This document shows, in pieces, positions 14,567 through 15,736 of a stretch of DNA of 64,000 nucleotides (within the stretch, counting starts at the first letter, position 1; each line of letters begins with the position of its first letter). The notes below the pieces were generated by a model. It was not told the origin of the DNA. It did no database searches and saw nothing but the letters and a program-made list of their open reading frames with translations. Position numbers and translations under genes: made by a program. The stretch is from Alphaproteobacteria bacterium (lineage in GTDB: Bacteria > Pseudomonadota > Alphaproteobacteria > Bin95). Location of the stretch: contig OZ219786.1 of assembly GCA_964291285.2 (NCBI GenBank), positions 1,280,001 to 1,344,000 on the forward strand. The letters are read 5' to 3'.

Positions 14567-14694
14567 ACAAAACCGGAGGCGGTCAACCGGGGCCGCATTT
14601 GCGGGGCGTTCTTCTGCAGGGGGGCGTCCCGCCTCCCCCGAACCCGGCCGGCGGGGCGCGTTCCGTCCCGGCGGGAGAGCGACTGTGTTGTCGG

Positions 14695-15627
14695 TCAAGC
14701 TGTTTTCCACGGGGTTCGGTCTCTGAGGATAGCGTTGAGGATTGTGAGGAGCTTTCGTGTGACGGCGGTGAGGGCAGCCTTTTTGGTTTTTCCCTCCGCG
14801 ATCAGGTGGCGATAGAAGCGTTTGAGGGTTGGGTTATGCCTGGAGGCGGTGAGGGCAGCCATGTAGAGGGTTGCGCGGACGTTGGCGCGTCCTCCCCATA
14901 TGGTTCTCTTTCCGCGCATGGTTCCGCTGTCGCGGTTGAAGGGCGCGACGCCGACGAGCGCGGCGATGCGCCTTCGGCTGAGGGTTCCGAGTTCGGGGAG
15001 ATCGGCGATCAGGGTTCGTGCGGTGGCGTCACCGACCCCGGGAACGCTTTTGAGGAGGTCCTCGGCCTGGCGCCATGCGGGGGATTTGCGGATCGCATCG
15101 CCGAGCTCGGTTTCGAGGTCGGAGAGTTCGCGTTGCAGGGTGGCGAGCACGCGGTCGACGCTGCGGATCGTGCGACGGCTTGTGAGGCGCCTCCTGCGGT
15201 TTCTCTCCGCGGTCATCATCGCGACGATCTGGCGCCGCCGGGCGACCAGCTCGGCGAGCGCGCGGGCCTGCTCGTCAGGCACCGGACGGGGCTCGGGATG
15301 GACCGCCTCGGCGAACTGTGCGATCGCCGCCGCATCGAGGGCGTCGGTCTTGGCGAGCCGGCCGGTGGCGCGGGCGAAGTCCCGGATCTGGCGCGGGTTG
15401 ACCACCGCCAATGGCAGGCCCGCCGCGCAGAGCGCCGCCGCGACCGTGACCTCGAAGCCGCCCGTCGCCTCCAGCACCACGAGGGCAACCTCCAGCCCGC
15501 CCAGGCGCGCCGACAACTCTTCCAGGCCTTTGCCGTCGCGCGCGACGGCAAAGGCCTCCCCGGACGGGCGCAGATGCACGTCCAGACGATCCTTCGCCAC
15601 GTCGATGCCAACGAATATCCGTTCCAT
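14695..15627 (-). CDS. IS110 family recombinase/transposase
   Basis: VGIDVAK, LEATGG, KTDALDA (DEDD), SVPGVG, RDSG (serine motif), RATLYMAA. Confidence 0.95.
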
Positions 15628-15629
15628 GT

Positions 15630-15736
15630 CCCGTCCTTGCAAATGCGGTCTCACACTGCGGACCAAGCGACTGTTCGGGTTCAAAGGAACAGCGGACGGG
15701 GAACCATGCTCTCCCGCGGTCTTCATAACCTGGGTG
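15630..15736 (-). ncRNA. putative IS110 bridge RNA (donor loop intact, target loop 5'-truncated)
   Basis: ACAGTCGCT (15666-15674) equals the IS end; GCGGGAGAG (15709-15717) is complementary to the target flank; closing stems CCCG/CGGG and GGTC/GACC. Confidence 0.72.

What the first reader, a model, noticed from the sequence alone, without database searches (positions are those of the whole stretch)
14671..15736. IS110 leader reads as a bridge RNA whose guides match both the element end and the actual insertion site
Seen in sequence: on the minus strand the element ends ...ACAGTCG-CT and the flank continues CTCCCGC. The 5' non-coding region reads CCCG-A-[ACAGTCGCT]-T-GGTC...GACC-GCATTT-[GCAAG]-GA-CGGG. 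That is an internal loop whose left arm (15666-15674) is identical to the 9-nt element end including the CT core. Further upstream, GCGGGAGAG (15709-15717) is the exact complement of the core plus flank CTCTCCCGC (14671-14679). Established: IS110 recombinases such as IS621 use a bridge RNA with target- and donor-binding loops and a CT core. Inference: this is a bridge recombinase system whose specificity can be read directly. Predicted donor is ACAGTCG-CT-TGC.. and predicted target is ..CT-CTCCCGC. The right donor guide also overlaps the recombinase ribosome-binding region.
Basis: partly seen in the sequence, partly recalled or inferred. Interest (0 to 1): 0.82.

Follow-up and report, generated by a model that had tools for sequence, protein, structure and literature searches.

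The report
Truncated copy of bridge-RNA insertion sequence
This is an ordinary IS110-type jumping gene whose leader encodes a guide ("bridge") RNA that reads both its own ends and its insertion site, but the copy in this window has lost the first part of that RNA to another jumping gene.

Summary
The window holds one of 13 identical copies of a 1126-bp IS110-group insertion sequence. It has a 310-aa DEDD/Ser recombinase, a 176-nt left end and a 17-nt right end.

Empty paralogous sites carry a single CT.

Across 62 aligned leaders from relatives, two stem/internal-loop modules are supported by compensatory changes.
- The 5' arm of loop 2 equals the last 7 nt of the right end in 72 of 76 loci.
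- The 3' arm of loop 1 is the complement of CT plus the first 5 flank bases (89 of 95 positions over 19 guide classes, 0 of 10,000 permutations).
- The 5' arm of loop 1 follows the left flank.

This genome's target reads GCAC-CT-CTCC(C/T)G.

The window copy is defective. An IS5-like element inserted at CTAG (15737-15740) removed leader nt 1-63: the left end, the 5' hairpin and the 5' strand of the target-loop stem. No left half lies nearby.

This is a new member of a known kind (IS621-like bridge recombinase). No RNA or activity data exist.

The parts
14678..15740 (-). IS110-group element remnant. It corresponds to nt 64-1126 of the 1126-bp element and is 100% identical to the 12 other copies over the 1056 nt compared.
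14695..15627 (-). Recombinase CDS, 310 aa. It carries a DEDD RuvC-like domain plus a Tnp domain. Residues D9, E53, D95, D98 and S234 align to conserved residues of IS621 transposase.
14672..14677 (-). Right target (RT) flank CTCCCG, outside the element. It is complementary to the right target guide.
14678..14679 (-). CT core at the right end.
   Evidence: empty sites have one CT
14680..14686 (-). Left donor (LD) ACAGTCG, the last 7 nt of the right end. It is identical to the left donor guide.
14693..14698 (-). TTGACC in the right end, overlapping the TGA stop codon. It is the putative -35 box of a promoter completed only in the excised circle: 17-nt spacer to TATCTC at nt 5-10 of the left end, which is absent from this copy.
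   Evidence: CTTGA invariant in 55 of 55 distinct right-end tails; the next base is C in 53 of 55; for the known IS621 arrangement
15732..15740 (-). Left target guide (LTG) CUAGCAC-CC. It matches the left-flank consensus only over GCAC-C. It starts with the CTAG used as target by the interrupting IS.
15717..15731 (-). Inner hairpin of the target-binding loop.
15709..15716 (-). Right target guide (RTG) CGGGAG-AG. The AG pairs with the CT core.
15708..15708 (-). Target-loop handshake base C, invariant after AG. It is complementary to donor position 7, which is G.
   Evidence: (A94 G95 C96 invariant)
15691..15705 (-). 3' strand of the target-loop outer stem. It is orphaned here because its 5' partner (leader nt 48-62) is missing.
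15630..15679 (-). Complete donor-binding loop module. Stem CCCG/CGGG lies at 15676-15679 and 15630-15633, and the inner hairpin at 15647-15664.
15666..15674 (-). Left donor guide (LDG) ACAGUCG-CU.
15636..15646 (-). Right donor guide (RDG) GCAUUUGCAAG. GCAAG pairs with CTTGT of the left end through one G-T wobble. It overlaps the AAGGA ribosome-binding stretch.
   Evidence: for the discontiguous RDG pairing in IS621
15634..15635 (-). Donor-loop handshake bases GA. The G is complementary to target position 7, which is C in 12 of 12 left flanks.
   Evidence: L058 has A there and a T in the flank
15741..15888 (-). Right end of an abundant roughly 2-kb IS (here called 'ISy') with inverted repeat ...GAGTTGCGGAAGTCGGG. 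It is inserted at CTAG in the IS110 leader and carries a nested 137-nt repeat.
15889..17820 (+). A further IS (IS1182/IS5-like DDE transposase, CDS 16136-17614) nested inside ISy.
17821..19836 (-). Left part of ISy. Its outer flank is ...GGGACC-CTAA, not the IS110 left end, so the left half of this IS110 copy is lost.

Best explanation
The locus is a copy of an active, compact IS110-group insertion sequence that works like IS621. The element is 1126 bp with 13 identical copies in this genome.

**Proposed mechanism.** A DEDD/Ser recombinase is guided by a roughly 160-nt bridge RNA encoded in the left end.
- The RNA has a 5' hairpin, a target-binding loop and a donor-binding loop.
[quoted passage not shown] The 3' arm ..GCAAG pairs with CT-TGT of the left end. 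Together they recognise the RE-LE junction ACAGTCG-CT-TGTATC of the excised circle.
- In the target loop, the 5' arm ..GCAC-C(C) and the 3' arm CGGGAG-AG recognise GCAC-CT-CTCC(C/T)G.
- Recombination at the CT core inserts the circle without a duplication beyond CT.
- Single 'handshake' bases after each AG (C in the target loop, G in the donor loop) fit donor G7 and target C7.
- A promoter is assembled only in the circle: TTGACC in the right end, a 17-nt spacer, and TATCTC in the left end.

**The window copy is a dead-end copy.** An IS5-like element inserted at CTAG inside the left target guide. The left 63 nt (left end, -10 box, 5' hairpin, 5' strand of the target-loop stem) are no longer adjacent or anywhere nearby. 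It therefore cannot form the donor junction or a complete bridge RNA. It keeps an intact recombinase gene and donor loop.

**Shown here:** sequence anatomy, copy ends, empty sites, structural covariation and guide-flank covariation.
**Inferred:** transcription, RNA-protein complex and catalysis.
For: **Protein.**
- Pfam PF01548 (3.4e-24) and PF02371 (4.2e-20) both match.
- NCBIfam NF033542 'IS110 family RNA-guided transposase' scores 222.9 bits against a cut-off of 140.
- IS621 transposase 8wt6 matches at E 1.5e-38 over residues 4-307, with the GID, EATG, TDxxDA and SG motifs aligned.

**Ends.**
- 13 body copies are 100% identical.
- All 12 left ends read CT-TGTATC after ..CAC, and all 13 right ends read ..ACAGTCG-CT followed by CTCC.
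- Unoccupied paralogous sites read ..GCGCAC-CT-CTCCTG.. with one CT. One matches the right flank of an occupied site for at least 25 nt.

**Structure.**
- RNAalifold on 62 leaders gives the two-loop fold.
- 26 pairs are 95.8% paired. 14 pairs and 171 cells changed on both sides, 0 of 500 shuffles reach this, and slid controls give 31-50% paired.

**Guides.**
- LDG nt 1-7 equals the right-end 7-mer in 72 of 76 loci, usually 11 nt after the CDS match. Three covarying variants occur: ACAGTCG 41, ACGGTCG 22, ACAGCCG 9.
- RTG against flank: cognate pairs match 4.77 of 5 positions, non-cognate 2.19 of 5. Over 19 guide classes the match is 89 of 95, with 0 of 10,000 permutations as high.
- LTG against left flank: 3.64 against 2.12 of 5. 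Over 40 classes the match is 146 of 200, with 0 of 10,000 permutations as high.
- The AG and the following C are invariant in 62 of 62 leaders.

**Promoter.** CTTGA is invariant in 55 of 55 distinct right-end tails, and the next base is C in 53 of 55.

**Published model.** The arrangement matches the passages read in PMC11208160 and PMC11208158.

**Truncation.**
Against: - No RNA evidence and no activity assay are available.
- Rfam 15 gave no match in 14300-16300 at E up to 10.
- Thermodynamic folding alone does not keep the loops open.
  - The intact leader has z = -2.71 and the target module z = -4.35.
  - The donor module alone has z = -0.08.
  - The window's truncated leader has z = -1.76 and mispairs the orphan stem strand with the donor module.
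- The left target guide matches the left flank over only 4-5 bases, and its second core base is C instead of U. In the nearest relatives (L031/L032) the register appears shifted by one base.
- The right-end search was seeded with the LDG 7-mer, so 'exact match' is partly by construction. Chance in the 290 nt searched is about 2% per locus (my arithmetic, not a call). The fixed offset argues against chance.
- Many loci are copies of the same element in one genome. For that reason class-level permutations were used.
- 10 of 76 loci were dropped from the flank statistics for lack of a clean end or flank.
Confidence: 0.9

Rival explanations
1. The repeated 9-mer and the flank complement are protein-binding or subterminal repeats, or chance matches. 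On this view the leader is only a 5' UTR that controls translation of the transposase, with no RNA guide function.
For: - The 3' arm of the donor loop overlaps the AAGGA ribosome-binding stretch, and the stem ends 2 nt before the ATG.
- The flank 9-mer alone is not rarer than chance in the window.
- The donor module alone is not unusually stable (z = -0.08).
Against: - The flank is not part of the element, yet the loop arm changes with it across 19 guide classes (89 of 95 positions, 0 of 10,000 permutations).
- The arms sit in internal loops bounded by stems with compensatory changes.
- The orientation rule described for IS621 holds: the 5' arm is identical to the top strand and the 3' arm is complementary to it.
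- The protein is a full-length homologue of IS621 transposase.
Confidence: 0.04
2. The window copy is itself still a working mobile unit. It would be an IS110 expanded by cargo (the nested ISs) that moves using bridge RNA supplied in trans by intact copies, or through half-site recombination at its right end.
For: - A sister copy at C2:1145191-1148469 has the same ISy insertion at the same CTAG, with the same nested 137-nt repeat, but a different right flank that also fits the target motif.
- A preprint abstract reports cargo-expanded IS110s and half-match recombination (10.64898/2026.08.14.744561).
Against: - The window copy has no left end. ISy's outer flank is ..GGGACC-CTAA.
- All 12 left-end pieces in the genome are accounted for by other copies.
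- Two independent ISy insertions, or later ISy-ISy homologous recombination, would explain the same facts.
- No circle or junction data exist.
Confidence: 0.12
3. The element belongs to the IS1111 or seekRNA branch, with the guide RNA encoded 3' of the recombinase. On this view the leader motifs would be secondary.
For: It is the same protein superfamily.
Against: - The right end is only 17 nt after the stop codon, against 176 nt for the left end.
- Both loops lie in the left end.
- PMC11208160 states that IS110-group members carry the RNA in the left end and IS1111 members in the right end.
Confidence: 0.01

Closest known systems
IS621 / IS110-group bridge recombinase with bridge RNA (Durrant et al. 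2024, PMC11208160; Hiraizumi et al. 2024, PMC11208158)
   Same: - The recombinase has the same two domains and aligns over its full length (E 1.5e-38).
- The core is CT, there are no inverted repeats, and the left end is long while the right end is short.
- The RNA has a 5' hairpin, a target loop and then a donor loop.
- The 5' arms read as the top strand (9 nt) and the 3' arms as the complement ending in AG.
- The right donor guide is longer than the stretch it pairs with.
- Handshake bases follow each AG.
- The -35 box lies in the right end and the -10 box in the left end.
- Target sites often lie in a repeated intergenic motif.
   Different: - The protein is distant from IS621. No identity figure was computed; the E-value and coverage are.
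- The element is smaller: 1126 bp with a 310-aa recombinase.
- The left target guide pairs over only about 5 bases and has C rather than U at the second core position.
- The right target guide is 6+2 nt in this genome.
- Target and donor-left sequences differ.
- Nothing has been tested experimentally.
ISMno7 (Methylobacterium nodulans), the nearest named IS found
   Same: It is an IS110-like element. Its transposase is 62.6% identical over residues 4-308.
   Different: - At this identity I take it to be a different IS.
- The threshold for calling two elements the same IS is recalled from ISfinder practice and was not checked.
- Its leader and ends were not examined here.
Cargo-expanded IS110 loci (Hu et al. 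preprint 10.64898/2026.08.14.744561, abstract read)
   Same: An IS110 with other DNA inside its boundaries. One composite copy has both ends intact (C2:1145191-1148469).
   Different: - Here the 'cargo' is other insertion sequences that disrupt the bridge RNA gene.
- Mobility of the composite is not shown.
IS1111-group elements / seekRNA
   Same: Same recombinase family and the same idea of an RNA guide.
   Different: Their RNA lies in the right end and they have subterminal inverted repeats. Here the RNA lies in the left end.

Membership tests
IS110-group bridge recombinase element (IS621-like) | [quoted passage not shown] | tested here: met
   D9, E53, D95, D98 and S234 align to the conserved GID, EATG, TDxxDA and SG positions of 8wt6.
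IS110-group bridge recombinase element (IS621-like) | No terminal inverted repeats; a dinucleotide core (CT) at both ends; a single core in the empty site. | tested here: met
   12 left junctions, 13 right junctions, and paralogous empty sites with one CT.
IS110-group bridge recombinase element (IS621-like) | Left end much longer than the right end, and non-coding RNA encoded in the left end. | tested here: met
   176 nt against 17 nt; both loops lie in the left end.
IS110-group bridge recombinase element (IS621-like) | RNA with two internal loops bounded by conserved stems. | tested here: met
   95.8% paired, 14 pairs changed on both sides, 0 of 500 shuffles as high. One search gives the same fold.
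IS110-group bridge recombinase element (IS621-like) | Loop arms covary with donor (element ends) and target (flanks); the 5' arm pairs with the bottom strand and the 3' arm with the top strand, and each arm includes the core. | tested here: met
   The left target guide is the weakest arm: 3.64 of 5 against 2.12 of 5 for non-cognate pairs.
IS110-group bridge recombinase element (IS621-like) | Sigma-70-like promoter reconstituted across the RE-LE junction of the circle. | tested here: inconclusive
   The sequence fits: TTGACC, a 17-nt spacer and TATCTC. CTTGA is invariant in 55 of 55 tails. The joined sequence was not scanned and there are no transcript data.
IS110-group bridge recombinase element (IS621-like) | The RNA is expressed, binds the recombinase and directs recombination. 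| not testable with these tools
   No RNA run was listed. This needs bench work.
Functional copy of that element (this window's copy) | Complete left end and complete bridge RNA gene. | tested here: not met
   Leader nt 1-63 are replaced by ISy at 15741, and there is no left half nearby.
IS1111 group | Long right end carrying the RNA; subterminal inverted repeats of 7-17 bp. | tested here: not met
   The right end is 17 nt.

The most novel reading that the evidence does not exclude
The target-loop half of the bridge-RNA gene is a preferred landing site for other insertion sequences. Three independent insertions fall at leader nt 47-55, 64-67 and 73-77. They affect 4 of 13 copies, and none falls in the remaining roughly 1050 nt. 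Such disrupted copies may persist, and may even spread, as recombinase donors or as composite elements served in trans by bridge RNA from intact copies or by half-site recombination at the right end. The window copy and its sister composite, which have different target-like right flanks, would be products of this.
Probability: 0.15. Interest if true: 0.45.

Novelty: new member of a known kind. Interest (0 to 1): 0.27.

Why it matters
The case shows that a bridge RNA's donor and target specificity can be read from raw sequence, and it confirms the reading with natural covariation. The element is small (310-aa recombinase, RNA of about 160 nt), recently active (13 identical copies) and has a defined 12-nt target. 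That makes it a reasonable further orthologue for bridge-recombinase engineering. For annotating this genome, the practical points are:
- this copy is defective;
- IS110, an abundant IS5-like element and an IS1182-like element are nested here;
- the target motif GCAC-CT-CTCC(C/T)G predicts further insertion sites. 12 unoccupied CACCTCTCC(C/T)G sites were found.

None of this changes current understanding of the family.

Tried and rejected
**Tried, with no useful result**
- Rfam 15 scan of 14300-16300 at E up to 10 gave only four chance-level hits (mir-4776 twice, P5, ncS025) and no bridge-RNA family.
- Single-sequence folding does not reproduce the open internal loops, because the arms pair with each other. 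The comparative structure was used instead.
- The look-up of sequencing runs listed no RNA holder.
- Read laying on contigs of runs X1, X2, X4 and X5 gave contigs that break at L004 1438 and 2568, which fits the repeat boundaries. No contig joined precisely across the element, and the listed joints belong to other repeats. It gave no evidence on circles or empty sites.

**Considered and set aside**
- A left target guide further 5' (GAGACCG-CU): only 5 of 9 scattered matches to the left flank (my reading), so rejected.
- The junction gtcggg|CTAG as a bridge-RNA-mediated recombination joint: rejected. ISy has its own inverted repeats and uses CTAG, CTAA or TTAG sites.
- The first hairpin (leader nt ~17-45) is clear in each sequence but aligned too poorly across subfamilies to be scored.
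- Whether the window copy arose by transposition of a composite or by two ISy insertions could not be decided. ISy copies are nearly identical.

**Rows dropped**
- L059 and L097 have no recognisable leader.
- 10 of 76 loci were left out of the flank statistics.
- In one search the left-end search picked a wrong site for L061, L076 and L081.

**Not seen**
- Supplementary files of the papers were not opened. Durrant et al.'s supplementary lists of orthologues and predicted bridge RNAs may already include this element or its relatives.
- Papers seen: PMC11208160 passages; PMC11208158 passages; 10.64898/2026.08.14.744561 abstract and outline. All others were seen only in the search listing.
- My recollection of the IS621 RNA sequence was used only as a mental guide and is not reproduced.
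Full report
**What is in the window.** On the minus strand, 15627-14695 encodes a 310-aa protein.
- It carries Pfam DEDD_Tnp_IS110 (3.4e-24) and Transposase_20 (4.2e-20).
- It passes NCBIfam NF033542, 'IS110 family RNA-guided transposase', at 222.9 bits against a cut-off of 140.
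- It aligns over residues 4-307 with the solved IS621 transposase 8wt6 (E 1.5e-38). The GID, EATG, TDxxDA and SG motifs are aligned, corresponding to D9, E53, D95, D98 and S234 here.

**True ends of the element.** The genome holding the window (5 contigs, 6.1 Mb) has 13 copies of the body, all 100% identical.
- Nine copies continue a further 68 nt to the left and then diverge. Their left junction is ..(A/G)C(G/A)CAC | CT-TGTATCTC...
- Three more left-end pieces belong to interrupted copies.
- All 13 right junctions read ..ACAGTCG-CT | CTCC, then C (9) or T (4), then G (10 of 13).
- The element is 1126 bp (C1:260075-261200). It has a 176-nt left end and 17 nt after the stop codon.
- Unoccupied paralogous sites read ..GCAGGGCGCAC-CT-CTCCTGT.. 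with a single CT. One continues exactly like the right flank of an occupied site.
- Insertion is therefore at a CT core with no further duplication.

**The window copy is truncated.** Homology to the other copies starts at CTAG (15740).
- Upstream lies the inverted-repeat end ..GAGTTGCGGAAGTCGGG of an abundant roughly 2-kb IS, called 'ISy' here (at least 50 full-length hits among the first 60 BLAST rows shown).
- In a sister copy the missing piece is present on the other side of ISy, with CTAG duplicated (C2:1145191-1145258, then ISy, then the body).
- In the window, ISy is itself split by another IS at 15889-17820 (IS1182/IS5-like transposase).
- ISy's outer flank at 19837-19841 is ..GGGACC-CTAA, not IS110 sequence.
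- All 12 left-end pieces in the genome belong to other copies. Leader nt 1-63 of this copy are therefore lost: the left end with its -10 box, the 5' hairpin and the 5' strand of the target-loop stem.
- Folded alone, the remnant pairs the orphan 3' stem strand into the donor module (z = -1.76). The intact leader has z = -2.71 and its target module z = -4.35.

**Structure.** I fetched 80 loci encoding relatives at 61-93% amino-acid identity and aligned 62 distinct leaders (alignment A1).
- RNAalifold returns two stem/internal-loop/hairpin modules.
- For a 26-pair structure, 95.8% of cells pair. 14 pairs and 171 cells changed on both sides, 0 of 500 shuffles reach any measure, and sliding the partners gives 31-50% paired.
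- The outer stem of module 1 changes, for example, from AGCGGACGGG/CCCGTCCGCT to CTCGGTGGAG/CTCCACCGTT or GGTGAGGGTC/GGCCCTCACC.

**Guides.** Passages of Durrant et al. state four rules:
- loop 1 binds the target and loop 2 the donor;
- the 5' arm pairs with the bottom strand over 8-9 nt;
- the 3' arm pairs with the top strand over 4-7 nt;
- each arm includes the core.

All four arms here follow these rules.
1. **LDG.** Its first 7 nt equal a 7-mer just after the CDS in 72 of 76 loci, usually 11 nt after the protein match. There are three covarying forms: ACAGTCG 41, ACGGTCG 22 and ACAGCCG 9. There are four misses (L059, L085, L088, L105). The right end always ends CT, even where the guide reads CC, CA or GC.
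2. **RTG.** It is a hypervariable stretch followed by an invariant AG (62 of 62). Its complement equals CT plus the first 5 flank bases.
   - 49 of 61 insertion events match 5 of 5, ten match 4 and two match 3.
   - The mean is 4.77 against 2.19 for non-cognate pairs.
   - With one representative per guide class (19 classes), 89 of 95 positions match, and 0 of 10,000 permutations do as well.
3. **LTG.** It is 7 variable bases plus, mostly, CT. Its last five variable bases match the left flank at 3.64 of 5 against 2.12 for non-cognate pairs. Over 40 classes the match is 146 of 200, with 0 of 10,000 permutations as high.
4. **RDG.** GCAAG faces the nearly invariant CTTGT of the left end, with a G-T wobble. 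It becomes G-C in the two leaders whose left end reads CTTGC, and some leaders have ACAAG.

In this genome the guides read as follows:
- LTG CUAGCAC-CC (15740-15732);
- RTG CGGGAG-AG (15716-15709);
- LDG ACAGUCG-CU (15674-15666);
- RDG GCAUUUGCAAG (15646-15636).

The 12 left and 13 right flanks give the target GCAC-CT-CTCC(C/T)G.

**Further details that fit the published mechanism.**
- Hiraizumi et al. describe 'handshake' bases just 3' of each core complement. They pair with position 7 of the other DNA after strand exchange.
- Here the base after the RTG's AG is an invariant C, and donor position 7 is always G.
- The base after the RDG's AG is G, and target position 7 is C in 12 of 12 flanks. 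In the one relative with A at that place (L058) the flank base is T.
- CTTGA in the right end, which includes the stop codon, is invariant in 55 of 55 distinct right-end tails, and the next base is C in 53 of 55. TTGACC lies 15 nt before the end of the element.
- With the left end's TG, this gives a 17-nt spacer to TATCTC at left-end nt 5-10. That is the circle-only promoter arrangement described for IS621.
- This is read from the two separate ends. No joined sequence was scanned.

**Weak points.**
- There is no RNA or activity evidence (one search listed no RNA holder).
- The LTG pairs over only GCAC-C here, and its second core base is C, not U. The same CC occurs in several relatives (REF, L037, L078, L079, L106).
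- In L031/L032 the best register is shifted by one base.
- The right-end search was seeded with the guide.
- Many loci are sister copies, which is why class-level permutations are quoted.

**Comparison and novelty.** Every sequence-level defining feature of an IS110-group bridge recombinase element that could be tested was met, except for the junction promoter, which was inconclusive. The IS1111 arrangement is excluded, because the RNA is in the left end and the right end is only 17 nt.
- Durrant et al. report predicted bridge RNAs in 85.7% of IS110-group elements, so finding one here is expected.
- The nearest named IS found is ISMno7 at 62.6%.
- I file it as a new member of a known kind.

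**Unexplained.**
- Four of 13 copies are interrupted, all within leader nt 47-77 and none elsewhere.
- Two copies share the same ISy insertion yet have different, motif-conforming right flanks.
- Whether this reflects site preference of the invading ISs, selection, or movement of a composite was not resolved. A preprint abstract reports cargo-expanded IS110s and half-match recombination.

Noticed in passing
Leader nt 47-77 of the element: C3:1143559-1143613 / 1142086-1142107; C2:1145258 / 1147408; C3:1703378-1706996; window 15737-15741: Three different ISs have inserted within a 31-nt span of the bridge-RNA gene, in the 5' half of the target loop. Their target duplications are GAGCGGACG (9 bp, a roughly 1.45-kb IS), CTAG (ISy) and AGGTT (a 3.5-kb element with inverted repeat CAGACTTCCTGACCTC). 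No copy is interrupted anywhere in the other roughly 1050 nt.
   Followed up: partly
window 15741-19836; C2:1145259-1147411: ISy is an abundant IS of about 2 kb (at least 50 full-length hits among the first 60 BLAST rows shown). Its ends are CCCGACTTCCGCAACTC / GAGTTGCGGAAGTCGGG, and it uses CTAG, CTAA or TTAG sites. Three copies carry a nested 137-nt repeat near the right end; that repeat also occurs on its own about 15 times.
   Followed up: partly
window 15889-17820: A further IS is nested in ISy, with a 12-bp overlap of ISy sequence on both sides. It encodes a 492-aa DDE transposase with DUF772 and weak IS1182/IS5 matches below the NCBIfam cut-offs. Its 117-nt end is repeated more than 25 times in the genome.
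   Followed up: partly
window 14678 and C2:1148469: The window copy and the composite copy on the same contig share the identical ISy-in-leader arrangement. Their right flanks differ (CTCCCGCCGGG against CTCCTGTCCGC), and both fit the target motif. The origin is unresolved: transposition of the composite, two ISy hits, or right-end half-site recombination.
   Followed up: partly
C3:2018660, C3:68650, C1:1226062(-) and the flanks of C3:1277585, C2:876887, C1:641247, C1:859980: Several occupied and empty target sites lie in one repeated intergenic motif: ..CCTGATTGCGCGCGCGAG..GCAGGGCGCAC-CT-CTCCTGT.. In all, 12 unoccupied CACCTCTCC(C/T)G sites remain in the genome.
   Followed up: partly
window 13474-14283 (+): A 269-aa ORF lies next to valyl-tRNA-synthetase-like ORF 10846-13467. 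It has no Pfam match at E 0.001 or better.
   Followed up: no
window 15526-15555: A perfect 30-nt palindrome (GCCTTTGCCGTCGCG/CGCGACGGCAAAGGC) lies inside the recombinase CDS. It is present in all copies and gave spurious weak Rfam hits.
   Followed up: no
L041 (left junction): One copy of a related element has TT-TGTATC instead of CT-TGTATC at its left junction. This suggests insertion at a site with a TT core, or a core heteroduplex resolved the other way.
   Followed up: no
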